A stretch of 35,643 bases of DNA from an uncultured Planctomycetales bacterium (GCA_964499235.1 CAZCKC010000009.1:1-35643); one strand, 5' to 3'. Shown: positions 3,024 to 32,698, numbered from the stretch's first letter. Notes: generated by a model from the letters alone, not told the origin. Numbers and translations: made by a program.

Positions 3024-6000
3024 CTACGCCACCGGCACCGCCGCGGACGCTTCCGTCGCCGCAGCCGCCGCTTCGTCTTCGTTGCGTTCCCGTTCGTCTG
3101 CCGGCGTCCCGTCCGGTTCCGCCGTCGCGGCGGGCGGGAACTCCGCCGCATCCGGCCCCGTCGGTCGACCGCTGGTAGGTGATCCCACGCCGCTCAGGGC
3201 CTGGCGCTTGTGGAGCGCCAACAAGCCGGCCGGCTCGAGGATCAGGCCGACGCGGCCGTCCCCGAGGATCGCGGCGCCCGAGACGCCCTCGACGCGCTTG
3301 AACTCCTGGCCGAGCGACTTGATCACGATCTGCTGCTGTCCGATCAGCTCGCTGACCACGATGCCGATCTTCTGGGCGCCGCTGCTGGCGACCACGACCA
3401 GTGCGTCGGTTGGGTCGATCCGCCCGCAGTAGCCGAAGTGCTCGCCCAGCTGGACCAGCGGGCAGAGCTCGCCGCGCACGCGCAGCATCTCGCCCCGCCG
3501 CTGGACCGTGGTGATCATGCTCGGGTCGGGGCGTAGCGACTGCTCGATCATGATCGTCGGCATCACGACGCGTTCCTGGCCGATGCGGATCAGCATCCCG
3601 TCGATGATCGCCAGCGTGAGGGGCAGCTTGATGCGGAAGGTGCTGCCGCGCCCCAGGGCCGACTCGATCTCGATCTTGCCGCGCAGCTCTTCCTCCACGT
3701 TCCGCCGGACGACGTCCATCCCGACGCCGCGGCCGGAGATGTCCGTCACCTGCTCGGCGGTCGAGAAGCCGGCGGCCATGATCAGCGCGAACGCCTGCTG
3801 GTCGCTGAGCTGGTCATCGGGGCCGATCACGCCCCGCTCGATGCCCTTCTTGATCAGCTTTTGGGGGTCGAGTCCACGGCCGTCATCGCGGATCTCGATG
3901 ATCACGCTGTCGCCCTCGTGGAAGGCGTCGAGGTGGACGTAGCCGATGTCGGACTTGCCGGCGGACCGGCGCTGGTCCGGCGGCTCGATCCCGTGGTCGA
4001 CGGAATTGCGCACCATGTGCACGAGCGGGTCGGCGATCTGCTGGATGACGTTCTTGTCGAGTTCGGTCTCTTCGCCGCTGATCACCAGCTCGACCTGCTT
4101 GCCGGCTTTGCGGGCGACGTCGCGAACGACACGCTTCATCTTCTGGAAGGTCATGCCGACAGGCAACATCCGCATGCCCATCGCGGTTTCCTGCACGTCG
4201 CGGACGATCTTCGTGACCTGCGTCACCCCGCGCCGCAGCCCCTCGTCGCCGTCGACCACCGAGTTCATGTTGACCATCGTCTGGGCGATCACCAGCTCAC
4301 CCACGGTGTCGACCAGCGCGTCGAGCTTGGCCGTGTCGACGCGGATCGACAGCTCGTTCGCCGCCGCGTTGCCCTTGCTTTCGCGGGCGCCAACTGGTGG
4401 CTGGTCCGCAGCGGTCTCGGCGTCGGGCTCGCGCGCCGCCGGCATCGGCGTCGCAGACGGCACGGCCGGACCGTCGACCGGCATGCCGGCCGCGACTTGG
4501 CGCAGGTGCGTGACCATCTCTTCGCACGGCGGCTGCGGCACGACGCCGCCGGTCGGCTCGATCAGGTAGCCTGCCAAGCAGTCGATCTGCGCCTTGAGCA
4601 CGTCGATGGCCGAGAAGATCACGTCGATGATCCCCGGCGTGATTTGCATCGTGCCCTTGCGACCCATGTCGAGGATCGTTTCCGCCTCATGGGTCAGGCA
4701 GTTGATGTCGCGCAGGTTCAAGAAGCCCGCGATGCCCTTGACGGTGTGGAACGGCCGAAAGAGCTCGTCGATCTTGGCCGAGTCGCCGGGCGCCTGCTCG
4801 ACGTCGAGCAGCGCGGCCTCGATCGCGTCGATGTGCTCGCGGGCCTCGTCCACGAAGCCCTGCAGGTTCTCGCTGTCTTCCAGGTCCACGGTCAGCGGCG
4901 TGCTCTGGTAGGGCGCGAGCTCGACCGTGGCGGGGCTGGTTGCCGGCGGGCGCGGCGCGGCAACGGGTTCGGTAGCCGGTGGCGGAGCGGGAGCTGGCGC
5001 GGCCGAGTCGGGTTCCGTCGCCGCTTTCGGCTCGGGCGACTCGCTCGCGGCGTCGCCGGCCACCAAATCGCGCAGCCGGGCGATGACCGCCTCCGCCTGC
5101 GGGGCGTTTCCGTCCGCCAGCGCCGCCAGGCACGCGACCCCCGCCGGCAGCGCTGCGAGCGCGCCGGGAACGTCCTTGACGTCGTCGAGGATCATCCCGC
5201 CGAGGACGCCGGCCAGCGCTCCCGCCAAGTTGCTGGTTTGCTCGCCGTTGGGTCCGCCCTGCGCCGCCGCGTCGGCGGCGATCTGCTCGCAGTGCGAGTG
5301 CGCCTGCGCCAGACTGGTGAGGTTCGCCGGATCAATGCCGGTCTCGACGGCTGCCCGCAACGCGGTCAGCGCCGGCGAGACGACCGTTGTTTCCTGCCCG
5401 GGACCGGCAGACGGAAGAGAAGCTTCGCCCGCCGTGCGGCCTTCCGCTGCGCTGTCGGATGGCTCGTTCTCGACGCGGTCGGTTACGATCGGCTCGTCGG
5501 CCGTCGGCCACAGCGCGCTCGGCGTCAACGCACAGCCGGCCGCAATTTCTTCTGCGCGCGCATTGAGGTCGTTGTCGTCGTCCACGGGAGCAGTCGCGTC
5601 ACCTGGCGTCACCGGCTCGACCGCCAGGGTCGCGGGGAGGCTCGTTGGTTCATTCGGCGTCGGGAGGTCTTGCGGAGGCGCCGTCCGCTCGGGCTGGCTG
5701 GGCTCCGTCGCGAATGGGGCCTGGTTCGCCGTGTCGCTCGTCGCGGCCAAGACCTGCGGCTGAACCGCGGCTAAGGGATCACCGTCGCCCGCGACAGCCG
5801 CGCCGAGCGCGTCGACCATCGGGCCGATCAACGCGTGGCCAGCCTCCGGCTGGACGGCCTCGCCGATAATCAGAGCCTCGAGCAGGCGTTGGAAATCGGT
5901 CGCAGCCGCCACGGTGTCCGCGTCGGCCGCCGCGTCGCGTTTCAGCGTGGCGACAAGGGCCTTGATCGCCTGGTGGAGTTGGGCGAGCCGCCCGAGGTCG

Positions 6001-6092
6001 TCGGCCTCAATTGGCGTGACCAGTTGTTGGCGGATGGTGTCGAGAATAGCCGAGATGCCGGCGTTGCCCGATCCAGAGTGGTGATCGCCCAT
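3024..6092 (-). CDS. cheA: CheA histidine kinase (1022 aa). An unusual ~400-aa Ala/Pro/Asp-rich N-terminal extension precedes the HPt domain, and an acidic Pro/Ala/Glu-rich tail lies at the C-terminus
   Basis: Features seen in the translation: HPt phospho-His context (ELFRPFHTVKGIAGFLN), a dimerisation region, HATPase_c motifs (NSVDHGIE...DDGRGLD...GRGVGMDVV...GRGSTF) and a C-terminal CheW-like domain. An SD (AGGAAG) lies 5 nt upstream of the ATG at 6092. Confidence 0.92.
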   Translation of the reverse strand: MGDHHSGSGNAGISAILDTIRQQLVTPIEADDLGRLAQLHQAIKALVATLKRDAAADADTVAAATDFQRLLEALIIGEAVQPEAGHALIGPMVDALGAAVAGDGDPLAAVQPQVLAATSDTANQAPFATEPSQPERTAPPQDLPTPNEPTSLPATLAVEPVTPGDATAPVDDDNDLNARAEEIAAGCALTPSALWPTADEPIVTDRVENEPSDSAAEGRTAGEASLPSAGPGQETTVVSPALTALRAAVETGIDPANLTSLAQAHSHCEQIAADAAAQGGPNGEQTSNLAGALAGVLGGMILDDVKDVPGALAALPAGVACLAALADGNAPQAEAVIARLRDLVAGDAASESPEPKAATEPDSAAPAPAPPPATEPVAAPRPPATSPATVELAPYQSTPLTVDLEDSENLQGFVDEAREHIDAIEAALLDVEQAPGDSAKIDELFRPFHTVKGIAGFLNLRDINCLTHEAETILDMGRKGTMQITPGIIDVIFSAIDVLKAQIDCLAGYLIEPTGGVVPQPPCEEMVTHLRQVAAGMPVDGPAVPSATPMPAAREPDAETAADQPPVGARESKGNAAANELSIRVDTAKLDALVDTVGELVIAQTMVNMNSVVDGDEGLRRGVTQVTKIVRDVQETAMGMRMLPVGMTFQKMKRVVRDVARKAGKQVELVISGEETELDKNVIQQIADPLVHMVRNSVDHGIEPPDQRRSAGKSDIGYVHLDAFHEGDSVIIEIRDDGRGLDPQKLIKKGIERGVIGPDDQLSDQQAFALIMAAGFSTAEQVTDISGRGVGMDVVRRNVEEELRGKIEIESALGRGSTFRIKLPLTLAIIDGMLIRIGQERVVMPTIMIEQSLRPDPSMITTVQRRGEMLRVRGELCPLVQLGEHFGYCGRIDPTDALVVVASSGAQKIGIVVSELIGQQQIVIKSLGQEFKRVEGVSGAAILGDGRVGLILEPAGLLALHKRQALSGVGSPTSGRPTGPDAAEFPPAATAEPDGTPADERERNEDEAAAAATEASAAVPVA

Positions 6093-6502
6093 CGCAACTT
6101 CCTGCGAGCATCGAGATTGTCGAGCAGCGTGAGCCCGTTACCCGGATCAACGCCGCCCAAGGCCAGTTGGAGCCTTGCCCAGTCTCGATATCGTGTCGCG
6201 ACCCGCTCGCCATGAGCGGTGATCTGTTGCCCGCGACAACCGCTTTATCATTGACCCTGGCAACCCCTGGGGCGTTTACCCGAGTACCCTCGGGCGTTCA
6301 CCCCTACGCGTGACATCGTTGGGTGTGTCGGGTGCGTGTGAGCCATGTGGTGGCGGCCTGGCGCCCCCATATCCGCCCCGGCCGGTTGGGGCCCTTTCAG
6401 CGTGTGACAGCTGTCGAGAAAAACCGCGCAGAAGTAACCACCCGCAGGCAGGGCCCAGAAATGCTCTGGATGGGACGGGTTCACGTCTGATAAGCAGCCG
6501 TT

Positions 6503-7639
6503 TCAGCCGTCGAACAGCGCGAACTCGCCGACCAATCCAGGCCCGAAAGCGAGCATGAGCGCCGGGCCGCTGCCGCCGGCCGCCCGCCAGCGCTCCAGCA
6601 CGAACAGCACGGTGGCGGAGGACATGTTCCCATGCTCGGCCAGGACGGCGCGGGAGGGTGCCAGCGCCTCTTTTGGGAGTCCGAAAGTCTGTCCAACGGC
6701 GTCGAGGATCCGCGGGCCGCCGGGATGGACCAGCCAGCCGTGGATGTCGGCGAGGCGGCGGCCGCGCTGTTGGAGCCAGGCGGCCAGCGGCGGCTTCAGG
6801 TGCTCGTGGAGCAGATCAGGGACGGCGTCGTCGAGGCCCATCACGAAGCCGTGGTCGCCGATCCGCCAGCTCATCGCGTCGGCGGTGTGCTCGAACTGCC
6901 AGCTGCCGGTGTCGACGAGCCGGAGCGGCGGCGCAGCGGTTGCGCCGGCGATTGGGGCGATGACGGCGGCGGCGGCGCCGTCGGCGAAGAGTGCATTCCC
7001 GACGAGGCGTTCCGGGTCGTCGCCCTTGGCGTAGTGCAGGCTGCACAGCTCGACGGCGACGATCAGGGCACGGGCATCGGGGTTGGCCTGCACGAGGCCG
7101 CGGGCCACGCGGAGGGCATTGATGGTCCCGTGGCAGCCCATGAAGCCCACCTGCACGCGCTCGATGTCCCGTCGCAGGCCGAGCTGTTCGATCAGCGCCG
7201 CATCAATGCCGGGTGACACGAATCCGGTGCAGGTGACGGTGACCAGGTGGGTGATGGAGCCCGGTGGCGTACCGGCATCCGTTAGCGCGGCCGCGGCCGC
7301 GGCGGTCGCCAACGGCGGCGCGTGCTGGGCGAAGGCTGCCATCCGCTCGGCGGTCGTGGGGCTGTGAGCTTCACCATGGTTTGCAGCACGGTAAAAGCGA
7401 GGCAGCTCGGTTTGCTCCGTGCTGTCGAGGATGACCGAGCCGCGGCGCCGCACGCCGCTGGCGCGGAAGAGGATCTTGAGGCGGCGCTGGCTTTCCGGCC
7501 CGCCGGTGCAGAATGCCTGCGCGAGTTCGGCCGCCTGGCGCTGCTCGATCGACAGCGCGGGCGGCGCCGTGCCCACGCCGCTGATCGTTACGACAGCCGT
7601 GCTGGACGTTTCTCTCTTCACCTGCTCAGCCATAGACAT
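6503..7639 (-). CDS. Type III polyketide synthase (chalcone/stilbene synthase superfamily)
   Basis: The Cys-His-Asn triad contexts are all present: FMGCHGTINALR (Cys), WLVHPGGPRILD (His) and EHGNMSSATVLFVLE (Asn). The start was trimmed to the internal ATG at 7639 (MSMAEQVKRE); the longer track ORF to 7732 overlaps the upstream gene with an Arg-rich, junk-like N-terminus. Confidence 0.85.
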   Translation of the reverse strand: MSMAEQVKRETSSTAVVTISGVGTAPPALSIEQRQAAELAQAFCTGGPESQRRLKILFRASGVRRRGSVILDSTEQTELPRFYRAANHGEAHSPTTAERMAAFAQHAPPLATAAAAAALTDAGTPPGSITHLVTVTCTGFVSPGIDAALIEQLGLRRDIERVQVGFMGCHGTINALRVARGLVQANPDARALIVAVELCSLHYAKGDDPERLVGNALFADGAAAAVIAPIAGATAAPPLRLVDTGSWQFEHTADAMSWRIGDHGFVMGLDDAVPDLLHEHLKPPLAAWLQQRGRRLADIHGWLVHPGGPRILDAVGQTFGLPKEALAPSRAVLAEHGNMSSATVLFVLERWRAAGGSGPALMLAFGPGLVGEFALFDG

Positions 7640-8759
7640 ACGTGACGTAAGGCCGCGCGACCCGCGGCATCCATTGCAAGCTGCGGACGACGCCCCCGAC
7701 GAGCGCGGGCGAGCGCAAGGCCTGCGCGACAAGCCGGCACCAGCGCTGATGGCCGCCGACGAGGCGGCGCTGGGCGCGGATCCAGTCCTCGGCGAGCCGC
7801 GGTTGCCACGCGCTGACCGCCGCCTGAAGCATCGGCTGCACGCACAGTGCCGAGCGAAGCGCCCAGGTCATGCCTTCGCCCGTGAACGGTTCGACGTAGC
7901 CGGCCGCGTCGCCCACGACGAAGAGCCGGTCGGCCGCCGCGTTTCGCGAGCGCGTCAGCCGCGGTGTGCCAGTCCAGCGAACCGAGGCGAGATTGGCGAA
8001 AGGCGGAAAGCCAGCTTCGTCCAGGATCGCAGCGACCGCGCCGGCGGGACTGCCGGCGGCACGCACCGCGCCTGGATCGACGGCCGCAGCGATGTCGATC
8101 TCGCCGTCGCCGAGGTCAACCATGCCAGCGTAGCCGCGGCGCGTTACGGCCATTTGGATCGTGCCGGGCTCGACGTGTTGGGGGGCGGCTCGTACGTGAG
8201 CACCCACTCCGATCCGCGCAGACCGCGCGATCTTCGGATCTGAAGCGTCGCCTGACGCAATGGCCGTCCCGCCGAGCCCGTCCGCGACCACGACGGCAGC
8301 TGCTCGCACGTGGCGCGTGTCGCCCTGGCCGCGCAGCGTGACGAGCCTGCCGTCCTCGTCGCACGCACCGATTTGGGCGGCGGTCGCCGGCTCGAACGTT
8401 GCGCCAGCCGCGATCGCGGCCGCTACGAGCCCTCCGTCCAGAACGGTTCGCCGCACGGCGACGCCTGCCGCTAGCGGGACCCGCGCTGACTGGCCGCGAT
8501 AGTGCAGACAGAACCCGTCGAGCGGCGCTGCGCTGCGCGGACCGACCAAGTGGCCGCAGTTGACTTCTTCGAGCAGCCGCACGCCCCGGGCACTCAGGCA
8601 GCAGCCGCACACCTTGTCGCGCGGCCAGGCTTTCTTCTCGACGAGCAGCACCCGCGTGCCGGCCTCCGCCGCGAGCAATGCGGTCAGCGCGCCGGCCGGC
8701 CCGGCGCCGACGACGATCAGTGGCCACTGTTCCTTGACGCTGGTCGGCCGCGCGACCAT
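7626..8759 (-). CDS. FAD-dependent oxidoreductase of the geranylgeranyl-reductase type
   Basis: Rossmann FAD motif IVVGAGPAGALTALLAAEAG plus RDKVCGCCLS, matching the GGR-family CGG motif. The start was trimmed to the ATG at 8759 (MVARPTS...), which overlaps the methyltransferase TGA (ATGA). Confidence 0.8.
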   Translation of the reverse strand: MVARPTSVKEQWPLIVVGAGPAGALTALLAAEAGTRVLLVEKKAWPRDKVCGCCLSARGVRLLEEVNCGHLVGPRSAAPLDGFCLHYRGQSARVPLAAGVAVRRTVLDGGLVAAAIAAGATFEPATAAQIGACDEDGRLVTLRGQGDTRHVRAAAVVVADGLGGTAIASGDASDPKIARSARIGVGAHVRAAPQHVEPGTIQMAVTRRGYAGMVDLGDGEIDIAAAVDPGAVRAAGSPAGAVAAILDEAGFPPFANLASVRWTGTPRLTRSRNAAADRLFVVGDAAGYVEPFTGEGMTWALRSALCVQPMLQAAVSAWQPRLAEDWIRAQRRLVGGHQRWCRLVAQALRSPALVGGVVRSLQWMPRVARPYVTYVYG

Positions 8760-9469
8760 CAGCCAGCCTCCCAGGTGGCGACGAAGCGGAAGGGCCACGC
8801 CGGACGGACGGCCGCGCCCCGCACACCGCTGGTCGCCAGCAGATCGTAGACCTCGCCGCGGGTCAGGGCGGCTCGCACCGACAGCAGCGCATCGGTGTGC
8901 ACCACTGGGCTGCGGGAGAGGACGCGGCTGCCCAGGAGTGCGGCGAGGTAGCCGAGGCGACTCCGCTCGAGGTCTGCGAGGACGCAGGCGCGCCGGGCGC
9001 TCGCGGTCATATTCTCAATCAGCTGCCGGGCCTGGTCGTCGAGGCAGTGGTGCAAAAATAGCGTTGAAAGGGTTACGTCTGCGGACCCCGGTTCGAACGC
9101 CTGGGGATCGAGGAAGTCGGCCGCGTGGCCGGTGAAGGTGACGCCCGTGGCCGTCAGACGCTGGTCCGCCAAGGCGAGGGCGTGCGAGCTGATGTCACAA
9201 CCGTGCAACTCCAGGGCAACGCCGGCGCGGCGGGCGTGCCGCGCGATCGCCGCGAGCACGTCGCCCCCGCCGCAGGCGACGTCGAGCAGGACCAGTGGCC
9301 GCGAGCGGTCGACGAAGCGCCGCAGGGCCCGCCAGACAACGTAGCCGCTGAGGCTGATCGCGTTGATCCGCCGCAGGCCGGCGAGGGCCCGCGTGTGCTC
9401 TGCGGGGGGCAGGCGGGGATCATCCATCCGCTCGGGGCGGACGTCACGCTCCGTGAGGCTCGCGAGCAT
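8759..9469 (-). CDS. Class I SAM-dependent methyltransferase
   Basis: Motif I LVLLDVACGGGDVLAAI. The start was trimmed to the ATG at 9469 (MLASLTERDV...), which overlaps the nitroreductase TGA (ATGA). The 129-aa upstream extension in the track ORF is Arg/Pro-rich, out-of-frame junk over the nitroreductase gene. Confidence 0.8.
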   Translation of the reverse strand: MLASLTERDVRPERMDDPRLPPAEHTRALAGLRRINAISLSGYVVWRALRRFVDRSRPLVLLDVACGGGDVLAAIARHARRAGVALELHGCDISSHALALADQRLTATGVTFTGHAADFLDPQAFEPGSADVTLSTLFLHHCLDDQARQLIENMTASARRACVLADLERSRLGYLAALLGSRVLSRSPVVHTDALLSVRAALTRGEVYDLLATSGVRGAAVRPAWPFRFVATWEAG

Positions 9470-10065
9470 CAGGTCGGGAAGCCGCCCTCGAAGGCGAACT
9501 CGCTCACGGGCTTGCGGCCGCTGGGCTGTTCCATCGAGCGAAGCTGGTCGGGGAGGTCTTCGGGCTTGCCGGGCAGGCCGACCGCGAACATGGCGCAGAT
9601 CGTGAAGTCTTCGGGGATGCCGAGGGCCTGGGGGGCGTCGTCGTGGTCGAAGCCGGCCATTCCATGGACGACGAGTCCCATCTGGGCGCCCTGCAGCGCG
9701 AGGTTCTCCCAGGCGGAGCCGGCGTCGAAGACGTGGACGGGGTTGGGCTTGCCGTTCTTGCTGAAGGTCTGCTTCGAGATGATCAGCCCGAGGGCGGCGG
9801 CGTGCTGGGCCCAGGACTGGTTGGCGTCGACGAGGAGGTCGAAGAAGGTCGGCCACGCGGGCGTGTCGCGGCGGGCGTAGAGGATGCGCCAGGGCTGCTC
9901 GTTAAAGGACGACGGGGCCCAGCGGGCGGCCTCGAAGAGGCGCTCGAGCGCGCCGTCGTCGAGCGGTTGGCCGGTCATCGCCCGCGGCGACCATCGCTGG
10001 ACGAAGAGCGGCTCGACAGCGTGGTCGGGCTGGCGGTACTGCTTGACATCGAGATGCATGGACAT
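9469..10065 (-). CDS. Nitroreductase-family flavoprotein (NAD(P)H-dependent FMN oxidoreductase fold)
   Basis: RWSPRAM...SSFNEQPW N-terminal signature of the nitroreductase family, 198 aa. An SD (GAGGA) lies 9 nt upstream. Confidence 0.85.
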   Translation of the reverse strand: MSMHLDVKQYRQPDHAVEPLFVQRWSPRAMTGQPLDDGALERLFEAARWAPSSFNEQPWRILYARRDTPAWPTFFDLLVDANQSWAQHAAALGLIISKQTFSKNGKPNPVHVFDAGSAWENLALQGAQMGLVVHGMAGFDHDDAPQALGIPEDFTICAMFAVGLPGKPEDLPDQLRSMEQPSGRKPVSEFAFEGGFPT

Positions 10066-10111
10066 GTGGCTGCGTCCTCGAGTTGGTTGGGTTCCTGGCG
10101 GGCGACGGCGC

Positions 10112-10561
10112 TCAGCCGGTCGCGTTGGCCGCCGGCTGGGCCTGGGGCTTGGTCTTGCGGCGGCGCTTGAGGGCCCATGGCCCGGCCCCGTGGGCGAAGA
10201 CCATCAACAACCCGCCGAAGATGGCGAGGTTCTTCATGAACTGGATCTGCTGTTGTCGCTGCTCAGCGCCTTCAAAGGTCCAGAAGTCATGGAACGAGAG
10301 GGTGGCCGCCGCGAGGAAGATCATGAGGAGGATGGCGCCGATGCGGGCATAGAAGCCGAGGATCAGGGACAGCCCGCCGGCGATCAAAAAGACGACGGCC
10401 CCGAAGAGCAGGAACGAGCCGAGGGCCCCGCCGGGCAACCCGCCTTGGTCCTGCATGTAGTTCAGCGTCGCGTTCCAGTTGGGGATCTTGTTCATGATGG
10501 CTGAGCTGAGGAAGATCACGGCCAGCGCCAGCCGGCCCAGCAAGCTCACCAGTCCCTGCAT
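10112..10561 (-). CDS. DoxX-family small integral membrane protein
   Basis: Four hydrophobic helices, the typical DoxX size and layout, and SFHDFW/MKNLAIFGG-like segments. The start was trimmed to the ATG at 10561 (MQGLVSLLGRLALAVIFL) with SD GGAGA. It lies 46 bp upstream of the nitroreductase gene. Confidence 0.7.
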   Translation of the reverse strand: MQGLVSLLGRLALAVIFLSSAIMNKIPNWNATLNYMQDQGGLPGGALGSFLLFGAVVFLIAGGLSLILGFYARIGAILLMIFLAAATLSFHDFWTFEGAEQRQQQIQFMKNLAIFGGLLMVFAHGAGPWALKRRRKTKPQAQPAANATG

Positions 10562-10779
10562 CGCTGTCTCCTCGTTGCCGCGGCGCGGCCCCGGTTTGCC
10601 ATCGTTCGCGCTGATCAACTTGGATATTGTAGCCCGCCCGCCGCCGTGGGGCATTTGGCCGGGCGCTCGTTTGCTGGCGCGTAGCGGGAGGGATAAACTG
10701 AAGGCTGGACAAGTATGTTGCGCGCCGGGCGCTGTTTCGCTGCTGCCCGGCGGTGCCGTGAGGTAGGCGAACCGGGAGA
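10562..10779. promoter_or_regulatory. Divergent intergenic region, presumed to hold promoters for the DoxX-PKS operon (minus) and the 10780 gene (plus)
   Basis: A 218-bp non-coding gap between divergently oriented genes; no specific -35/-10 is claimed. Confidence 0.3.
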
Positions 10780-11640
10780 ATGACCGTGGTGCACGTCAGC
10801 AGCGGCCCCGCCAAGGCCGACCCCCTCTACTGGGTCTTGATCGTCGCGCTTTGCCTCGGATTGTTCGCTTATTTTATCTACGACTGGCAGGTCGGCTATC
10901 TCAGCCGGAACATCAGCGAGGCCCGTGCCGAGCTTGGGCAACTGCTGAATGCTGATCCCGAAGCGGTCGAGATTCCGGAACCCGAGCGGCCCACGCGGGC
11001 CGAGTTCGACGCACTCTTCGTCGACCGGCCGGGCACGACACGGATCACACGGGAAGAGATCCGCGCTGCCTTCGGGGAGCCGATCACCACCCGAGAAACG
11101 GCCGACGGCAACCAGGTCGAGTACTACGCGAGCCACTACGGCATGGCGACGGTGACCTACCGCGGCGGGCAGCCGATGCCCGAGTGGCGCAAGTGGTTCA
11201 AGTCGAAGGACCAGATCGAGGCGCAGCTCTACTGGGGCCTGATCCCGCTGGCCTTCGGGATCTTTGCGGCTTACAAGCTCGTGCGGGCGTTGACGCTCCG
11301 CGTCACCGTCGACGATGCGGGGCTGCGGTATCGCAGCGACCTGATCGCCTTCGACCGCATGAGCGGCCTGCGCGACTTCAACCCGAAGGGCTGGATCGAC
11401 CTCTACTACCGGAACGGGAAAGAACAGAAGCTGCGGCTGGACAACCAGAAGATCGCCCAGTTCGACGCCGTCGTCGACGCGATCTGCCAGCAGACCGGCT
11501 TTACCAATCCGGTCGCGGAGTACCGCGCCAGACGCGCGGCCGAAGAGGCCGAGGCCGGCATCGGGCCCGAACCGACCGACGAAGCGCCGGCGGCGCCCGA
11601 GGCCGGCGACACGGACGAGAACGAGAAGACGACGACCTGA
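10780..11640 (+). CDS. Hypothetical 2-TM membrane protein with an acidic C-terminal tail
   Basis: 286 aa. Hydrophobic helices at about aa 16-36 and 150-170 and a Glu/Ala-rich C-terminus; no recognisable catalytic motif. GC3-rich codon usage supports coding. The start is ambiguous: GGGAGA abuts the ATG at 10780, and a GTG at 10786 has better spacing. Confidence 0.55.
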   Translation: MTVVHVSSGPAKADPLYWVLIVALCLGLFAYFIYDWQVGYLSRNISEARAELGQLLNADPEAVEIPEPERPTRAEFDALFVDRPGTTRITREEIRAAFGEPITTRETADGNQVEYYASHYGMATVTYRGGQPMPEWRKWFKSKDQIEAQLYWGLIPLAFGIFAAYKLVRALTLRVTVDDAGLRYRSDLIAFDRMSGLRDFNPKGWIDLYYRNGKEQKLRLDNQKIAQFDAVVDAICQQTGFTNPVAEYRARRAAEEAEAGIGPEPTDEAPAAPEAGDTDENEKTTT

Positions 11641-11957: not shown

Positions 11958-13532
11958 TCAGTTGCTGGCGGCCGGCTGCGGGTCGCGGGTCATCATCGAG
12001 TCGAGCATCGTGCCGATCAGGGCAGTGGTCTCCGCGTTGCCGGTCCCGCCACCGCCGTTGCCGCCGACGACCATGACGCGCGGGGTGATCTCAACGCCCT
12101 GCTCGCCGACGATCTTGAGCAACTCGACCAGGGCGGCGTTGCCCTTGCCGATCTGCTGCGCGATGAGCTGGTAGGCGTTCGCCTGAGCCTCCGCGTTGAT
12201 CAGCGTTGCCTCGGCCTGGGCCTTGGCCTCGATGATACGGCGCTCGCTCTGCTGCTCGGCGATCTTGACTTCGTAGGCGGCCGTCGCCAGCCGCTTCTCT
12301 TCCACGGCTTCCTGCTGCGTGCTAGCGAGCTCCTTCTGCTGCTCGGCCGTCCGCTGCTGCTCCTGGAAGGTCTGCTGTTCCTGGATGGCAATCTCGCGGT
12401 CGGTCTGCGTCTTCAGCAGCTGGCCGAGCGAGGCCTCGTCGCCGACGTCGCCGATGCGAACGGCCGTCACGGTGACGCCAACCGGCTGCATCGCGGTCGC
12501 GAGCATCTGCTGCGACTGGGTTTCCTGCTTGGAACGCTGCTGGACGTAGTCGAGGGCTTTCACCGATTCGGCGTTGTTGCGGAAGATCGCCCGCACGGCC
12601 GAGTTGAGACGCTTGCTCAGCTGCTCGCCGTCGTCGCCGAACTTGGCCACCACGAGCGGGGCGTCATCAGCCTTGATGCGATACTCGATCCGCACGTCGA
12701 CCGGGAAGGTGAAGCCGTCCGAGGAGCGGACGATAATCTCGCGCTCCTCGCCGGCGGCGGCACTCTTGGTGTAGCGGACCGTTCGCTCGGCCGTCGAAAT
12801 CGTCGTGACCTCAAAGGCCGTCGTGTTGAGGTAATACTCCTGCGGCCGCAGCGGCGACCGCCAGATGCCGCGCATCCCGCGGTCGACGAGCGCCTCATCA
12901 GACACGGCCGCGTCGTCCGACACCGGGCCGACGTTGGACTTCACGACGCCGACGGTGGCCTTTTGGATGTTGGTGACCGACGTCTTCTCGACGTGGTAGA
13001 GCCGCGGGTTGATGCGGTACTTGCCGGGCGTGAGGACCGACGCCTGCGGGCCCTTGTAGCCACCACCCGTCTCGGAGAGGAAGTGCTCGGCCTTCAGCAT
13101 TTGCTGGAATTCGCCCTCGGACCACTCGGGGGCGTAGATCTGGCCTTCGGGCAGCGGCTTGCCGTCGGTGGTCGTGAGAATGCCGACCTCGCCGGGGCTG
13201 ATGTCGACCACGGGATCGATCTCGATGTCGTAGATGAACGGCCACAGCCACGGATGCCAGCCCGGGCCGAGGATGGCAGCTTGGGGGCCGGTCTCGCCTT
13301 CGGTGGCAATGATCTGACCGGCGGGCATCTTGTCACCGAAGTTTTTGATCACGATGCCGACGCCGTCCTCGCCGACGTAGCGGAACGAGGCGGCGTAGAA
13401 CGCGATCACGATCAGGAGCAGGCCGGCCACGCCCGCGCCGACGCGGATCCCGGTAGCGCGGAAGTTTGTAATGGTGGTGGTCACCAGCGCGATCGCGGCG
13501 ACCACACCCAACAGCACGATGATCAGCGACAT
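11958..13532 (-). CDS. Flotillin-like SPFH/Band-7 protein (FloT/YuaG-like)
   Basis: An N-terminal membrane anchor, an SPFH domain, then a long Glu/Ala/Gln-rich coiled-coil flotillin domain (EQQTFQEQQRTAEQQKELASTQQEAVEEKR...AKAQAEATLINAEAQANAYQ). SD GGGAGA lies 7 nt upstream. Confidence 0.85.
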   Translation of the reverse strand: MSLIIVLLGVVAAIALVTTTITNFRATGIRVGAGVAGLLLIVIAFYAASFRYVGEDGVGIVIKNFGDKMPAGQIIATEGETGPQAAILGPGWHPWLWPFIYDIEIDPVVDISPGEVGILTTTDGKPLPEGQIYAPEWSEGEFQQMLKAEHFLSETGGGYKGPQASVLTPGKYRINPRLYHVEKTSVTNIQKATVGVVKSNVGPVSDDAAVSDEALVDRGMRGIWRSPLRPQEYYLNTTAFEVTTISTAERTVRYTKSAAAGEEREIIVRSSDGFTFPVDVRIEYRIKADDAPLVVAKFGDDGEQLSKRLNSAVRAIFRNNAESVKALDYVQQRSKQETQSQQMLATAMQPVGVTVTAVRIGDVGDEASLGQLLKTQTDREIAIQEQQTFQEQQRTAEQQKELASTQQEAVEEKRLATAAYEVKIAEQQSERRIIEAKAQAEATLINAEAQANAYQLIAQQIGKGNAALVELLKIVGEQGVEITPRVMVVGGNGGGGTGNAETTALIGTMLDSMMTRDPQPAASN

Positions 13533-21263: not shown

Positions 21264-24200
21264 TTAGAGGGCTGCCGTGCTGGGGGTCGCCCCGCTGAAG
21301 CCGGCGAGCGCGTCCTGCTGGGCGGAGAGCTGGCCGAGGATGTCTTCCATGCGGTAGAACTCCTCGAGGAGCCGCTGGCGGCGGATCTCCAGGATGGCGT
21401 CCATTCGGTCGACGCGGTCGTCGAGGAGGTCGCGCTGGTCGTCGAGGGCGTTGTTGCGGTTGGAAATCAGGCCGCCGGCGCTGACGATGCTGGTAATGGT
21501 TTCACTGAGCTCGACGGCCCGGCCGCCGTCGGGGTCGGTGAAGAAGTCACGGACGGCCTCAGGATCGCGCTCGAGCTCGGCCTGGAGCTCGGTTTCGTCG
21601 AGCTCGAGCTTGCCGTTGGCGCCGAACCCGATGCCGAGCTGCGAGAAGCGGTTGAGCCCGCCGAACCCGGTTGACACGCGGCTGAGCTCACGGAAGAGCC
21701 GGTCCTCGATGGAACGGACGGTGCTCTCGCCGTAGAGGATGCCGCGCTGCTCGGTCTCGACGTCGTAGTCGCTCAGCGTCTCCAGGCGGTCGATCGCGCT
21801 GTTGAAGTCCTTGACGAAGCCGCGGGCGGCCTCGAGCACCTTGTCGAAGCTGCGTTGGACGTTGACGGTGACGGGGGCGTCACTGACGGCTTGGGCGGTG
21901 AGGGTCAGCCCGCCGATGACGTTTTCGAAGGTGTTGGTGCTGCTGGTCATCAGGACGCCGGAGTCGAGCGAGTCGCCGAGGACGATGCTGGCGTCGCGGG
22001 CTTCGGAGAGGGTGTTGAACCGCAGGCCGGTGGTGCCGCCGTCGATGATCAACTCGCCGCGCAGCCCGGTCGACGCCGAGCTGATCGCGAGCCGGTACGG
22101 CGCGACCGGCGAGCCGTCGTTGAAGATTGTCGCGGTGGCGAGCGTGCTCTCGCGGCCGATCTGCTCGGCGAGTTGCTCGAGCGTCGTGTTGCCGTCGGCT
22201 TCGAAATGGAACTCGAACGAGCCGTCGATCGTTCCGTCGGTCGCGGTGCCGAGGAGATTGAGATCGCGGGCGGCGGTGCCCTGCTCGTCGGTCACGGTGA
22301 GCGTTCCCGGGCCGCCGGCCTCGTCGATCAGCACGAGGCCGTCGCCGGTGTCGTTGATCCGCGCCTGGACGTCGACGCTGCTCGTGTTGATCAGGTTCAT
22401 GATCGTCTGGAGGTTGTCGTCGGCCAGGTCGCGGATTTCGATGGTGGCGTGCTTACCGGACGAGTCCTGGACCCGAATCGTGCCGGCGGAGATGCCCTGC
22501 CCGTTGTTAAGATCGTCGAGCAGTGTTTGCTCGGTGAGGTACTGCTTTTGCAGGTTATCGGAAGTCAGCGTGACGCCGCTGCCCGCCAGGCCGGTGTCGG
22601 CCGCGAAGGTGCCGTTGACGTCCTGGATCGTGAGCGGGTTGGCGCCATCTTCCGACTGAATCGTGAGCTTCGTGCCGGTCCGGTCGAAGCCGACGGTGAG
22701 CGCGAAGTCGGCGGCGGCGGCAGCTTGTTCGATCTTCCGCGTCACGTCGGCCAGCGTTTCGGCGTCGGTGAGGTCGACCTCGACGACGACATCATCCTGA
22801 GCGAGCGAGATGACGCCGCCAGCAAAGCCGCGGCCGCCGTTCAGCGTGCTCAGCATCGTGGTGTTCACGCCACCGATGAGACGCGTTCCCGTGACGCCGG
22901 CGGCGGCAGCGTAGGTCCCTTCGCGGATGCCGAGCGTGGCGAGCGATTGGGAATCGTTCTCGGCCGCGACCACGAGCGCGCCGGTCACGCCGTCCGCGCC
23001 GGTGATGGTGATCGCCTTGCCATCCGCGCTGATGGCTCCCTGGATGAGCGGCTCACGCGGCGCGGCGCCATCGCGCCCGTTGCTGGCTGAAAAATTGATC
23101 GCGGCCAGCACGTCGGCGATCGAGTCCATGTGGAGAATGTCGCGGCCCTCGAGGCGGTCGGAGTCTTCCGTCGCGGCGATGCCGAGGTCACGGGCCGCGT
23201 GGCCGGTGACGTCCTCGATGACCAGCGGGCCGGCGGGCGCTTCGTCGTTTTGCTCGTCGACACTGACGTCGTTGATGACGAGGTGGCCCGTGGTCATGAC
23301 GACGTTCAAGCGGTTGCTGCCGTCGCTCGCCTGGGTCTGTTCCTGGAGCGCGACGCGGACGTCGTCGACGGTCTCGGCGCCGGCGAGGTCGACCTCGTGA
23401 ACACTCCCGTCGCGCGTGGTGATCTTCATCACGCCGAGCTCGACGCCCGTCCCGTGATTCAGCCGGTCGAGCCGCGTATCGGGCTTGATGGTTTCCGAGA
23501 GCTCGACATTTACCGTCTGGCCGCCGACCGCGACCGAGAAGTCGGTGCTGGCGATCAGGTGCTGGATCCCGCGGCCGTCGTTTAAGACCGATAGCGGCGT
23601 GGTGGCGGCCAGCGTCGCCAGACTTGCACCACGCAGGACGCCGTCGGTCGCGACGTGCTGGCCGAAGGCGAAGCCGAGCGACTCAGCCGTCGACCCGCCG
23701 GCGACCTCGTTAATCTCGAGGCGGCCGCCGGTCGTCTCGGTCAGCACCAGGGCGTCGTCTTCGACGGCCGCGCGGACGTCGAGGCCGGCCGCGTTGATCC
23801 GGTCGACGACGTCATTGAGGGTTCGGGCGTCAACAATGTTGACGGTCGCGCTCTGGCCGCCGGCGTCGGTCAGAGCAAGGGCGCCGCGGGCGACGCCGTG
23901 ATAGCCGTTGAGAGCCTCGAGCCGGGTGGCGGTCTGGACGCGGGCGGCGGCGGACTCGACCGTGAGCGTGCCCTGGGCGAGCGGGCTCGACAGGGACTGG
24001 AAGCCGCCGGAGACGACCTGCTGGGTGGCGGCCAGCGACCGGACGACGAACTGGTGACTGCCGGGCGTCGAACGGGTCGTGGCGGTTGCGGTCAGGGCAC
24101 TGGGGTTGGAGGAGGTCGCGTTGCGGGTGTCGAAAAAACTGGGCTGGCGGAGCGAATTCAGCCGACCCTGCATGGCGGTAATTCGCGCAGAAACGTCCAG

Positions 24201-24344
24201 GAAGGCCGTCTTTTGCGCGTCGAGCGTGTCCATCCGTCTTTCGAGCTGCTGCTTCGGCTGGGCTTCGATGGCCATCAGCTGATCGACGAGATCGTTGATG
24301 TTGAGGCCGGAGAAAAGGCCGATGCCGGACGAAATCGTTCCCAC
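21264..24344 (-). CDS. fliD: Flagellar filament cap protein FliD (hook-associated protein 2), unusually long at 1026 aa with internal degenerate repeats
   Basis: The N-terminus GIGLFSGLNINDLVDQLMAIEAQPKQQL and the C-terminal coiled-coil (LLEEFYRMEDILGQLSAQQDAL) are typical FliD termini. GTG start at 24344 with SD AGGAG 7 nt upstream. Confidence 0.88.
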   Translation of the reverse strand: MGTISSGIGLFSGLNINDLVDQLMAIEAQPKQQLERRMDTLDAQKTAFLDVSARITAMQGRLNSLRQPSFFDTRNATSSNPSALTATATTRSTPGSHQFVVRSLAATQQVVSGGFQSLSSPLAQGTLTVESAAARVQTATRLEALNGYHGVARGALALTDAGGQSATVNIVDARTLNDVVDRINAAGLDVRAAVEDDALVLTETTGGRLEINEVAGGSTAESLGFAFGQHVATDGVLRGASLATLAATTPLSVLNDGRGIQHLIASTDFSVAVGGQTVNVELSETIKPDTRLDRLNHGTGVELGVMKITTRDGSVHEVDLAGAETVDDVRVALQEQTQASDGSNRLNVVMTTGHLVINDVSVDEQNDEAPAGPLVIEDVTGHAARDLGIAATEDSDRLEGRDILHMDSIADVLAAINFSASNGRDGAAPREPLIQGAISADGKAITITGADGVTGALVVAAENDSQSLATLGIREGTYAAAAGVTGTRLIGGVNTTMLSTLNGGRGFAGGVISLAQDDVVVEVDLTDAETLADVTRKIEQAAAAADFALTVGFDRTGTKLTIQSEDGANPLTIQDVNGTFAADTGLAGSGVTLTSDNLQKQYLTEQTLLDDLNNGQGISAGTIRVQDSSGKHATIEIRDLADDNLQTIMNLINTSSVDVQARINDTGDGLVLIDEAGGPGTLTVTDEQGTAARDLNLLGTATDGTIDGSFEFHFEADGNTTLEQLAEQIGRESTLATATIFNDGSPVAPYRLAISSASTGLRGELIIDGGTTGLRFNTLSEARDASIVLGDSLDSGVLMTSSTNTFENVIGGLTLTAQAVSDAPVTVNVQRSFDKVLEAARGFVKDFNSAIDRLETLSDYDVETEQRGILYGESTVRSIEDRLFRELSRVSTGFGGLNRFSQLGIGFGANGKLELDETELQAELERDPEAVRDFFTDPDGGRAVELSETITSIVSAGGLISNRNNALDDQRDLLDDRVDRMDAILEIRRQRLLEEFYRMEDILGQLSAQQDALAGFSGATPSTAAL

Positions 24345-31591: not shown

Positions 31592-32698
31592 TCACTGCGG
31601 CGGCAAGGGCGGCGGGACGGTTGCGAAGGCGGGCCCGAGCTCGGGGACCTGGCCGGCGGGCGTCCAGTTAGGCATTCCCTGGCGCCAAACGAGGGTGTTG
31701 CGGGTGAGCTGACCGGCCTGGGCCAGCTGCTGGAGCTTGGGCAGGTCGAACGGGCCGGCCTGCTGGTTATTCAGGGCGATGAAGACCTGGAGGCCCTGGT
31801 TCTGCGGCAGCGGCGGCGGCGTGGCCGGGGCGGCCGGCTGGGGGTTGGCCATCGCGCCGGCCATCTGGTTGGCCATCGCGAAGCCCATGCCCATGCCCAT
31901 GCCGGCGCCGGCCGTTCCGCCGGGGTTGGCGGCCGCGTCGCGGAGGGCCTCGGCGGTCTGGTACTCGGTGTATTTCTTGAGGTCGCCAATGACGCCCATG
32001 CTGGTGCGTTTGTCGAGGGCCTGCTCGACCTCGGCGGGCAGCGAGATGTTCTCGACGAGGAGCTTGGTGAGCTCGAGGCCGTAGGTGTTGAATTCGGGCT
32101 GGATGCGGGTGGTGATGAAGTCACCGAGCTCGTCGTAGTTGGCGGCAAGGTCGAGGATGGGGATCTTGCTTTCGCCGAGGATGTCGGTGAAGCGGCTGAC
32201 GATCATGTTGCGGAGCTGGTCGGTGATGTCCTCGGTGGTGAAGTGGCTGTTGGTGCCGACGATCTCACGGATGAAGGCCGAGGGGTCGTTGGCGCGGGTG
32301 ACGTAGGTGCCGAAGGCCCGCAGGCGGACGGGTCCGAACTCGGCGTCGCGGAGCATGACCGGGTTCTTGGTGCCCCACTTCAGGTCGGTGAAGCGGCGGG
32401 TGCTGACGTAGTAGACCTCGGCCTTGAACGGGCTCTCGAAGCCGTACTTCCAGCCCTGGAGCGTCGAGAGCAGCGGCAGGTTCTGGGTCTCGAGCGTGTA
32501 GGTGCCGGGCTGAAAGACGTCGGCGAGCTGACCTTCGTTGACCAAGACGGCGGCCTGGCTTTCGCGGACGACGAGCTTGGCGCCGTACTTGATCTCGTTG
32601 TTGTAGCGTTCGAACCGGTACACCATGGTGTTGCCGGTTTCGTCGAGCCACTCGATGATGTCGATGAGCTCGCCGCGGAGCTTGTCCCAGATCGCCAT
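31592..32698 (-). CDS. YdjI-like SPFH-domain protein with a C-terminal Pro-rich/GYF-like (DUF4339-type) tail
   Basis: The N-terminus MAIWDKLRGELIDIIEW...VFQPGTYTLETQNLPLLSTLQGWKYGF is closely similar in pattern to B. subtilis YdjI (VFQDDGEFDIESQIIPFLSTLKGFKFGF). A Gly/Met-rich linker is followed by GPFDLPKLQQLAQAGQLTRNTLVWRQGMPNWTPAGQVPEL. Confidence 0.8.
   Translation of the reverse strand: MAIWDKLRGELIDIIEWLDETGNTMVYRFERYNNEIKYGAKLVVRESQAAVLVNEGQLADVFQPGTYTLETQNLPLLSTLQGWKYGFESPFKAEVYYVSTRRFTDLKWGTKNPVMLRDAEFGPVRLRAFGTYVTRANDPSAFIREIVGTNSHFTTEDITDQLRNMIVSRFTDILGESKIPILDLAANYDELGDFITTRIQPEFNTYGLELTKLLVENISLPAEVEQALDKRTSMGVIGDLKKYTEYQTAEALRDAAANPGGTAGAGMGMGMGFAMANQMAGAMANPQPAAPATPPPLPQNQGLQVFIALNNQQAGPFDLPKLQQLAQAGQLTRNTLVWRQGMPNWTPAGQVPELGPAFATVPPPLPPQ

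What the first reader, a model, noticed from the sequence alone, without database searches (positions are those of the whole stretch)
6503..10561. Tightly coupled five-gene type III PKS operon: candidate undescribed polyketide pathway
Five minus-strand genes are packed with ATGA start/stop overlaps (at 9469 and 8759), an 8-14 bp overlap at 7626..7639 and a single 46-bp gap. That packing implies co-translation and a dedicated pathway. The operon encodes one scaffold enzyme, a type III PKS with an intact Cys-His-Asn triad, and three tailoring enzymes: an O/C-methyltransferase, a GGR-type flavin oxidoreductase and an FMN nitroreductase-fold enzyme. It also encodes a DoxX membrane protein; DoxX proteins are associated with quinone/thiol redox systems. 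The PKS + MT + flavoprotein logic parallels known alkylresorcinol, alkylpyrone and alkylquinone loci (Streptomyces srsABC, Bacillus bpsAB). The gene order and the nitroreductase and DoxX partners differ from those loci, so the product is likely an uncharacterised tailored phenolic lipid or quinone.
Basis: partly seen in the sequence, partly recalled or inferred. Interest (0 to 1): 0.72.

Follow-up and report, generated by a model that had tools for sequence, protein, structure and literature searches.

The report
Known-type alkylresorcinol operon, two extra neighbours
The five packed genes are real, but three of them form an already described operon for long-chain phenolic lipids (alkylresorcinols), found in planctomycetes and cyanobacteria, and the other two are neighbours seen only in this organism's close relatives.

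Summary
Five minus-strand genes (DoxX, nitroreductase, methyltransferase, FAD oxidoreductase, type III PKS) lie at 6503-10561. The PKS has an intact Cys167-His303-Asn336 triad.

The methyltransferase > FAD oxidoreductase > PKS core matches, in content and order, the cyanobacterial hidABC (hierridin) operon. It also matches the tricistronic operon reported at 58 of 96 planctomycetal type III PKS genes, whose PKSs make C15/C17 alkylresorcinols (PMC10896814). Of 80 species-representative genomes carrying a PKS relative, 39 have the same colinear trio and 51 have all three genes.

None of the 80 has a relative of this nitroreductase or DoxX nearby. The nitroreductase is a widespread gene, 60-70% identical across Planctomycetota. 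It is not next to any of the other four genes in all 69 contexts read outside this lineage. It sits beside the operon only in close relatives, where the unrelated downstream cheA is syntenic too.

The window comes from a Phycisphaerae genome found in microbial-mat metagenomes. Verdict: a new member of a known kind. A functional role for the two extra genes, for example quinone reduction, is not excluded but has no support.

The parts
6503..7633 (-). Type III polyketide synthase (376 aa from ATG 7633; alternative ATG at 7639). HidC-like, probably a long-chain alkylresorcinol synthase.
   Evidence: Pfam Chal_sti_synt_N/C. It is 43-54% identical to PKSs that sit in methyltransferase-FAD-PKS operons of Planctomycetota, Gemmatimonadota, Halomonas and a Prochlorococcaceae cyanobacterium. 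The best solved structures are long-chain-acyl type III PKSs (7cb3, PKS18). In an NJ tree it nests within that family.
7133..7135 (-). Catalytic Cys167 codon of the PKS (His303 at 6725-6727, Asn336 at 6626-6628).
   Evidence: Motifs FMGCHG, VHPGG and HGNMSS align to the catalytic residues of PKS18.
7626..8759 (-). FAD-dependent oxidoreductase (377 aa), HidB-like. A presumed ring hydroxylase whose role has not been shown experimentally.
   Evidence: FAD_binding_3. TIGR02032 GGR family 111.5 bits (cutoff 158.8) and QhpG 79 bits. A family profile scores best against geranylgeranyl reductase 3oz2 (1e-25) and the halogenase CmlS (7e-24). The motifs PRxK-CGxC and GDAxxYxEPFTGEG are invariant in 41 homologues.
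8759..9469 (-). Class I SAM-dependent methyltransferase (236 aa), HidA-like. Whether it methylates O or C is unknown.
   Evidence: Methyltransf_25/12/11. NF004851 at 204.7 bits, below its cutoff of 243. It is 36-45% identical to the methyltransferase at the same position in the operon in 39 colinear loci.
9469..10065 (-). FMN nitroreductase-fold NAD(P)H oxidoreductase (198 aa). A lineage-specific neighbour of the operon.
   Evidence: PF00881. The closest structure is 2fre, 'NAD(P)H-flavin oxidoreductase', at 1.5e-48. Homologues at 60-70% identity are widespread and not next to PKS genes. It lies next to the methyltransferase only in L001, L005, L006 and L155-L158.
10112..10561 (-). DoxX-family membrane protein (149 aa from ATG 10561; the ORF is open up to 10654).
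   Evidence: PF07681 49 bits, SURF4 46 bits. A GAGGAG Shine-Dalgarno-like sequence lies 7 nt upstream of ATG 10561. It is present upstream of the nitroreductase in same-lineage contigs L005 and L155-L159 and absent from the 80 PKS loci.
6427..6446 (-). Terminator-like hairpin followed by a T-run, about 57 nt after the PKS stop and before cheA.
   Evidence: Consensus scan. The match is weak: 4 such sites were found against 2.2 expected.
10562..10779 (.). Divergent intergenic region between DoxX (-) and the gene starting at 10780 (+). Presumed promoter region of the five-gene unit.
   Evidence: ORF layout. No sigma-70 consensus match, so this is inferred from geometry only.

Best explanation
Genes 8759-9469, 7626-8759 and 6503-7633 form a hidABC-type alkylresorcinol operon (methyltransferase > FAD oxidoreductase > type III PKS) in a Phycisphaerae (Planctomycetota) genome. 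By homology, the PKS loads a long-chain (about C16-C18) fatty-acyl thioester and extends it three times with malonyl-CoA. It then closes the ring by decarboxylative C2-C7 aldol condensation to give a 5-alkylresorcinol. The methyltransferase methylates the ring: on O in HidA, probably on C in Gimesia maris. The flavoprotein is presumed to hydroxylate the ring, giving a methoxy-alkyl-hydroquinone-type lipid as in hierridin B. The nitroreductase and DoxX genes upstream are probably co-transcribed. They are most likely general redox or housekeeping genes that this lineage happens to carry next to the cassette, not conserved members of the pathway. What is shown: gene content, order, junctions, catalytic residues, family placement and the pattern of synteny. 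What is inferred: product class, starter length, methylation site, the hydroxylase role, co-transcription and the lack of a role for the two extra genes.
For: The same trio in the same order is present in 39 of 80 species-representative loci, and all three genes are present in 51 of 80. It is also present in the nearest metagenomic relatives L001, L002, L005 and L006. The literature reports the tricistronic operon at 58 of 96 planctomycetal type III PKS genes. [quoted passage not shown] HidA methylates pentadecylresorcinol and HidB is the proposed hydroxylase (PMC6836626). Forty-seven hierridin-like clusters are known in cyanobacteria (PMC8086630). The PKS is 52% identical to a Prochlorococcaceae PKS and 47% to a Gimesia PKS, within the 48-55% range the literature gives for the family, and it nests in that family in an NJ tree. 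For the incidental-neighbour reading of the nitroreductase and DoxX: 0 of 80 PKS loci have relatives of either, even at E<=1. 0 of 69 nitroreductase-homologue contexts have the methyltransferase, FAD or PKS gene or a relative of the window's DoxX. Immediate same-strand neighbours of 40 such operons fall into 53 unrelated Pfam families, none in more than 3 loci. PMC10896814 reaches the same conclusion: adjacent genes are conserved only in close relatives. In L001 the unrelated cheA downstream is syntenic too. TypA relatives place the window in Phycisphaerae.
Against: No product was measured, and the closest experimentally tested PKSs are only about 47-52% identical. The role of the flavoprotein is unresolved even in the published systems. 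The nitroreductase/methyltransferase TGATG overlap is conserved in L005, L006 and L155-L158. The nitroreductase still directly precedes the methyltransferase, with a 4-nt gap, in L001, where the PKS is only 62% identical. That pattern would also fit a real functional recruitment. Only the best 80 of 454 PKS relatives were inspected. The metagenome scan is pattern-limited and missed known same-lineage contigs.
Confidence: 0.8

Rival explanations
1. All five genes form one dedicated pathway. The flavoprotein product is a redox-active alkyl-methoxy-hydroquinone/quinone. The nitroreductase acts as its NAD(P)H:quinone reductase, or as a flavin reductase feeding the GGR/halogenase-like flavoprotein. 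DoxX is a membrane partner for the lipid quinone, giving self-protection or a small electron-transfer module.
For: The packing points this way: a 46-bp gap, then a TGATG overlap into the methyltransferase. The nitroreductase-methyltransferase adjacency is kept in L001 at 62% PKS identity. Nitroreductases such as YodC and MhqN reduce quinones to hydroquinones in Bacillus quinone detoxification (PMC6798810). The closest solved structure of the nitroreductase is annotated as an NAD(P)H-flavin oxidoreductase. The flavoprotein family profile is close to FADH2-dependent halogenases and GGRs, which need external reductants. From memory only: B. subtilis MhqP and CatD are DoxX-family proteins in quinone/catechol resistance operons.
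Against: 0 of 80 related PKS loci carry either gene. Nitroreductase homologues at 60-70% identity are stand-alone in 69 contexts. The nitroreductase is more conserved (75% in L001) than the biosynthetic genes (49-62%), as expected for a housekeeping orthologue rather than a recruited tailoring enzyme. Synteny in L001 extends to the unrelated cheA. The hid-type cassette works in other hosts without such partners.
Confidence: 0.15
2. The PKS is an alkylpyrone synthase (lactonisation, PKS18/ArsC-like) or makes another scaffold, so the operon yields methylated pyrones rather than resorcinols.
For: The closest solved structures are mycobacterial PKS18-type alkylpyrone synthases. Two planctomycetal type III PKSs gave no product in C. 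glutamicum. Cyclisation specificity can switch with single residues (established for ArsB/ArsC; from memory).
Against: Identity to PKS18 is far lower (178-185 bits) than to operon-embedded family members (355-380 bits). Every tested PKS from a methyltransferase(-FAD)-PKS operon made alkylresorcinols, and the non-producers were outside such operons. The partner enzymes match those of the hierridin pathway.
Confidence: 0.05

Closest known systems
hidABC hierridin B cluster of Cyanobium sp. LEGE 06113 and hierridin-like clusters of picocyanobacteria (Costa et al. 2019; PMC6836626; PMC8086630)
   Same: The three enzyme types match (SAM methyltransferase, FAD oxidoreductase, type III PKS) and so does the order, methyltransferase > oxidoreductase > PKS. 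The PKS is about 52% identical to a Prochlorococcaceae homologue.
   Different: The host phylum differs. The methylation site and final product are unknown here. The window has a nitroreductase and a DoxX gene fused onto the 5' end of the operon, which are not reported for hid clusters. I had no HidA/B/C sequences for a direct comparison, and the cyanobacterial contig I fetched was cut just upstream of the PKS.
Planctomycetal methyltransferase - FAD oxidoreductase - type III PKS operon (Milke et al. 2024, PMC10896814)
   Same: Same phylum, same tricistronic architecture and order. The PKS is 43-52% identical to homologues in Gimesia, Schlesneria, Pirellulaceae and Isosphaeraceae loci. The expected products are C15/C17 alkylresorcinols.
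   Different: The window is from the class Phycisphaerae, where that study found type III PKS genes less common. The window clade (with L001, L005, L006) is a separate branch with two extra upstream genes.
srsABC of Streptomyces griseus (alkylresorcinol/alkylquinone phenolic lipids)
   Same: The logic is the same: a type III PKS makes an alkylresorcinol, a methyltransferase and a flavoprotein hydroxylase tailor it, and the product is a hydroquinone/quinone lipid.
   Different: Sequence relationship was not tested here.
Bacillus subtilis quinone-detoxification genes (MhqN/YodC nitroreductases; PMC6798810)
   Same: An FMN nitroreductase-fold enzyme is encoded alongside other redox genes in a quinone context.
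   Different: This is an analogy only. No sequence comparison to MhqN was made. The window's nitroreductase is closest to 2fre, a structural-genomics protein of unknown role. The DoxX membership of MhqP is from memory and I did not find it in the searchable library.

Membership tests
hidABC-type / planctomycetal methyltransferase-FAD oxidoreductase-type III PKS alkylresorcinol operon | Type III PKS with Chal_sti_synt_N and _C domains and a Cys-His-Asn triad | tested here: met
   PF00195 and PF02797; C167, H303, N336.
hidABC-type / planctomycetal methyltransferase-FAD oxidoreductase-type III PKS alkylresorcinol operon | SAM methyltransferase and FAD-dependent oxidoreductase genes directly upstream, in the order methyltransferase > oxidoreductase > PKS on one strand | tested here: met
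   The same order occurs in 39 of 80 related loci and is described in PMC10896814.
hidABC-type / planctomycetal methyltransferase-FAD oxidoreductase-type III PKS alkylresorcinol operon | All three proteins are homologous to those of other members (the literature gives about 48-55% between phyla) | tested here: met
   PKS 43-54%, methyltransferase 35-45%, FAD enzyme mostly 33-47% identical to the proteins at the same operon positions. In the NJ tree the PKS nests with the Prochlorococcaceae and Gimesia sequences (no bootstrap). No direct comparison with HidA/B/C or the G. maris proteins themselves was possible.
hidABC-type / planctomycetal methyltransferase-FAD oxidoreductase-type III PKS alkylresorcinol operon | Product is a 5-alkylresorcinol or a methylated/hydroxylated derivative | not testable with these tools
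   Needs expression and MS analysis.
srsABC (Streptomyces phenolic lipid operon) | Gene order PKS > methyltransferase > hydroxylase | tested here: not met
   In the window the PKS is last, not first.
DpgA (3,5-dihydroxyphenylacetyl-CoA synthase) and FabH-type enzymes | Score above the NCBIfam equivalog cutoff | tested here: not met
   DpgA 166.7 bits against a cutoff of 425; FabH models 45-60 bits against 249-292. RppA/THNS was not tested directly. No chain named as a THN synthase is among the 60 best solved structures listed.
Geranylgeranyl reductase family (TIGR02032) | Score above the family cutoff | tested here: not met
   111.5 bits against 158.8. The profile's best PDB hit is GGR 3oz2. 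Where I recall GGRs carrying YxWxFP, this family has GY(V/A)G (the GGR motif is from memory). It is a related subfamily, not a member.
Nitroreductase superfamily (PF00881) | Pfam domain above the gathering score | tested here: met
   62.6 bits against 23.5. No NCBIfam equivalog was reached (BluB 41 against 150; RutE 39.6 against 152).
DoxX family (PF07681) | Pfam domain above the gathering score | tested here: met
   49.4 bits against 23.6.

The most novel reading that the evidence does not exclude
In this Phycisphaerae lineage the hid-type cassette has been extended into a five-gene unit. The nitroreductase acts as an NAD(P)H:alkylquinone reductase, or as a flavin reductase for the HidB-like flavoprotein. 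DoxX acts as a membrane partner. Together they would turn an alkylresorcinol-derived hydroquinone/quinone lipid into a redox-cycling membrane cofactor or a self-protected toxin. That would also suggest what the unresolved flavoprotein step of these operons produces.
Probability: 0.15. Interest if true: 0.45.

Novelty: new member of a known kind. Interest (0 to 1): 0.22.

Why it matters
The main value is in correcting the record. The locus is not an undescribed pathway. It is another copy of a compact three-gene alkylresorcinol cassette that is spread across Planctomycetota, Cyanobacteria, Gemmatimonadota, Halomonas and other groups. It adds a Phycisphaerae, microbial-mat example. Some open interest remains: the final products and the flavoprotein step of these operons are still unknown, and the extra nitroreductase and DoxX genes give a cheap, testable hypothesis that the product is a quinone/hydroquinone lipid.

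Tried and rejected
- **Source contig:** an exact look-up of the window PKS (P0001) found no gene on record. I identified the source through the nitroreductase instead.
- **Cyanobacterial context:** the contig of the Prochlorococcaceae PKS (P0035) starts 160 bp upstream of the PKS, so the hidA/hidB genes could not be seen.
- **Structure prediction:** I did not try a single-sequence model, and I did not model the nitroreductase because a close solved homologue exists.
- **Literature searches:** '2FRE' with nitroreductase returned nothing. The search for MhqN/MhqP/DoxX found only a passing mention, so the MhqP = DoxX link rests on memory.
- **Promoters:** the sigma-70 scan found none. This is uninformative for a planctomycete.
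- **RppA/THN, DpgA or FabH-like primary metabolism:** considered and rejected for the PKS.
- **Flavin-dependent halogenase:** considered for the flavoprotein, because hierridin C is chlorinated by an unknown enzyme and the family profile scores CmlS at 7e-24. I rejected it tentatively, because the family has GY(V/A)G where I recall halogenases carrying WxWxIP (the halogenase motif is from memory).
- **A recurrent fourth gene across operons:** none was found.
Full report
**Observation.** The region 6503-10561 holds five minus-strand genes.

| Gene | Window coordinates | Best family evidence |
|---|---|---|
| DoxX-family membrane protein | 10112-10561 | PF07681, 49 bits |
| Nitroreductase-fold FMN protein | 9469-10065 | PF00881, 63 bits |
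| Class I SAM methyltransferase | 8759-9469 | Methyltransf_25/12/11; NF004851 at 205 bits, just below its cutoff of 243 |
| FAD_binding_3 flavoprotein | 7626-8759 | TIGR02032 GGR family at 111.5 bits, cutoff 158.8; QhpG 79 bits |
| Type III PKS | 6503-7633 (or 7639) | Chal_sti_synt_N and _C |

I read the junctions from the sequence. The flavoprotein/PKS overlap is 8 or 14 nt, as stated. The two junctions at 9469 and 8759 are TGATG, where the stop and the start share one A. They are not ATGA four-base overlaps, which is a small correction. The PKS triad is Cys167, His303 and Asn336 (window 7133-7135, 6725-6727, 6626-6628). It aligns with the catalytic residues of PKS18. The next gene upstream (10780, + strand) is divergent. 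A weak terminator-like hairpin at 6446-6427 separates the PKS from cheA. A five-gene transcription unit is therefore plausible, but it has not been shown.

**Source.** Identical nitroreductase-bearing contigs come from microbial-mat metagenomes. All named relatives of the window's TypA/BipA (74-80% identity) are Planctomycetota, Phycisphaerae or Phycisphaerales. No species representative in the genome collection has a PKS closer than 52%.

**What the core is.** Methyltransferase > FAD oxidoreductase > type III PKS is a described operon. Milke et al. 2024 (PMC10896814) found 96 type III PKS genes in 131 planctomycetal genomes. At 58 of them the PKS was the last gene of exactly this tricistronic operon. 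The order is identical to hidABC, the hierridin B cluster of Cyanobium.

- The PKSs from Gimesia maris, Rhodopirellula baltica and Stieleria maiorica made pentadecyl- and heptadecyl-resorcinols in C. glutamicum.
- Adding the G. maris methyltransferase and flavoprotein added one methyl group, probably on carbon.
- The flavoprotein's role stayed unresolved.
- HidA O-methylates pentadecylresorcinol, and HidB is the proposed ring hydroxylase (PMC6836626).
- Forty-seven hierridin-like clusters are known in cyanobacteria (PMC8086630).

**My own survey agrees.**

- The PKS has three very close or moderately close metagenomic relatives (89%, 88% and 62% identity). After these comes a plateau at about 50-54% that spans Planctomycetota, Longimicrobiales, a Prochlorococcaceae cyanobacterium and others.
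- Of 80 species-representative loci, 39 carry the colinear trio, 12 more carry all three genes in another arrangement, 9 carry two of the genes and 20 carry the PKS alone.
- An NJ tree (no bootstrap) nests the window clade within this star-like family, together with the Prochlorococcaceae and Gimesia sequences. PKS18 is a distant outgroup.
- The closest solved structures are long-chain-acyl type III PKSs: 7cb3, PKS18, Ectocarpus PKS1, Steely1 and PKS11. They score about 180 bits, against 355-380 bits for family members.
- DpgA and FabH models score far below their cutoffs.

It also shows that the pathway type is already known.

**The flavoprotein.** An alignment of 41 homologues (A1) has an invariant PRxK-CGxC motif and an invariant GDAxxYxEPFTGEG motif. 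At the position where I recall halogenases carrying WxWxIP and geranylgeranyl reductases carrying YxWxFP (both motifs from memory), this family has GY(V/A)G. The family profile scores best against Thermoplasma geranylgeranyl reductase (1e-25) and the phenolic halogenase CmlS (7e-24). It is a distinct subfamily of that group, so 'GGR-type' is acceptable only at superfamily level. Hydroxylation is inferred from the hierridin and srs logic, not shown.

- tblastn with the window's nitroreductase and DoxX found no relative in any of the 80 PKS loci, even at E<=1.
- The nitroreductase belongs to a very conserved family of about 198 aa. Members are 60-70% identical across Phycisphaerales, Lacipirellulaceae, Alienimonas and Verrucomicrobiota.
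- I read five contexts of long or close homologues, and none is near a PKS. The nearest relative outside the lineage (70%) stands alone between opposite-strand genes. One (Alienimonas) has a weak DoxX match three genes downstream.
- None of 64 metagenome loci with nitroreductase relatives carries a methyltransferase, FAD enzyme, PKS or DoxX relative.
- Same-strand immediate neighbours of 40 methyltransferase-FAD-PKS operons fall into 53 unrelated Pfam families. None occurs in more than 3 of 49 proteins, and they are mostly housekeeping. This matches the published remark that adjacent genes are conserved only among close relatives.

The nitroreductase directly precedes the methyltransferase only in three settings: the window's own population (L155-L158), the 88-89% relatives (L005, L006) and the 62% relative L001. 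In L001 and L006 the downstream gene is again cheA. The whole neighbourhood is therefore inherited, and the adjacency does not separate function from ancestry. In L001 the nitroreductase is more conserved (75%) than the PKS (62%), the methyltransferase (49%) or the flavoprotein (50%). That fits a housekeeping orthologue. Stand-alone homologues are also tightly packed with unrelated downstream genes, such as CrcB at +10 nt or a 4-nt overlap with a 134-aa ORF. Packing by itself is therefore weak evidence.

**Mechanism.** The best-supported reading (confidence about 0.8) has four steps.

1. The PKS converts a long-chain acyl thioester plus three malonyl-CoA into a 5-alkylresorcinol.
2. The methyltransferase methylates the ring.
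3. The flavoprotein probably hydroxylates the ring, giving a hierridin-like methoxy-alkyl-hydroquinone lipid.
4. The nitroreductase and DoxX are probably co-transcribed but are not conserved pathway members.

The main rival (about 0.15) is that this lineage has recruited both extra genes. The nitroreductase would act as a quinone or flavin reductase and DoxX as a membrane partner. Nitroreductases do reduce quinones to hydroquinones in Bacillus detoxification (PMC6798810). The closest solved structure (2fre) is annotated as an NAD(P)H-flavin oxidoreductase. An alkylpyrone or other scaffold is a minor rival (about 0.05).

**Limits.**

- No product data exist for this locus.
- No direct alignment to HidA/B/C, SrsA-C or the tested planctomycetal enzymes was possible, because I did not hold their sequences.
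- Only the best 80 of 454 PKS relatives were inspected.
- The metagenome scan uses peptide patterns and did not return the same-lineage contigs I already knew about, so its negative result is not exhaustive.
- The tree has no support values.

**Verdict.** This is a new member, from Phycisphaerae, of a known operon type, with two lineage-specific upstream neighbours of unproven relevance. Interest is low to moderate.

Noticed in passing
L025, L030, L051, L078, L079 (Halomonas/Vreelandella); L041, L069, L083 (Rhodanobacteraceae); L017, L024, L039, L073, L085 (Gemmatimonadota); L050 (Acidobacteriota); L076 (Hydrogenedens); L081 (Sumerlaeota): The PKS family, mostly with the full colinear methyltransferase-FAD-PKS cassette (L069 and L081 show only the FAD and PKS genes), occurs in several phyla well outside Planctomycetota and Cyanobacteria. 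PKS identities are all about 45-52% and the tree is star-like. This suggests repeated horizontal transfer of a compact cassette.
   Followed up: partly
window 7626-8759 (residues 46-54) and alignment A1: The HidB-like flavoprotein family has an invariant PRxK-CGxC motif, with two invariant cysteines three residues apart (C51 and C54; CGCC in the window). At the position where I recall halogenases having WxWxIP and GGRs having YxWxFP, it has GY(V/A)G. A possible redox-active cysteine pair in an enzyme whose reaction is still unknown.
   Followed up: partly
window 3024-6092 (-): The CheA is 1022 aa. About 400 residues before the Hpt domain are Ala/Pro/Asp-rich and match no Pfam family. The same gene follows the PKS operon in relatives L001 and L006.
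   Followed up: no
window 21264-24344 (-): The flagellar cap protein FliD is 1026 aa, with about 680 residues between its FliD_N and FliD_C domains.
   Followed up: no
L087, L088, L090 (about 5600-8500 in each): In other Phycisphaerales-type contigs the orthologous nitroreductase sits next to a conserved opposite-strand block: an ArsR/MarR-type regulator plus two AHSA1/Polyketide_cyc2 (SRPBCC) proteins. A divergent gene of about 640-650 aa with no Pfam match lies upstream. The window lineage lacks this context.
   Followed up: no
window 11958-13532 (-) and 31592-32698 (-): There are two SPFH/Band 7 genes in one 35-kb window. The second is fused to a GYF_2 domain. The first is part of the conserved neighbourhood upstream of DoxX in same-lineage contigs (L155-L157).
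   Followed up: no
L089 6351-6773 (Alienimonas californiensis): A weak DoxX-family gene lies three genes downstream of the nitroreductase orthologue, after a small unannotated ORF and a PemK-family toxin gene. It is the only other loose nitroreductase-DoxX proximity seen and may be chance.
   Followed up: no
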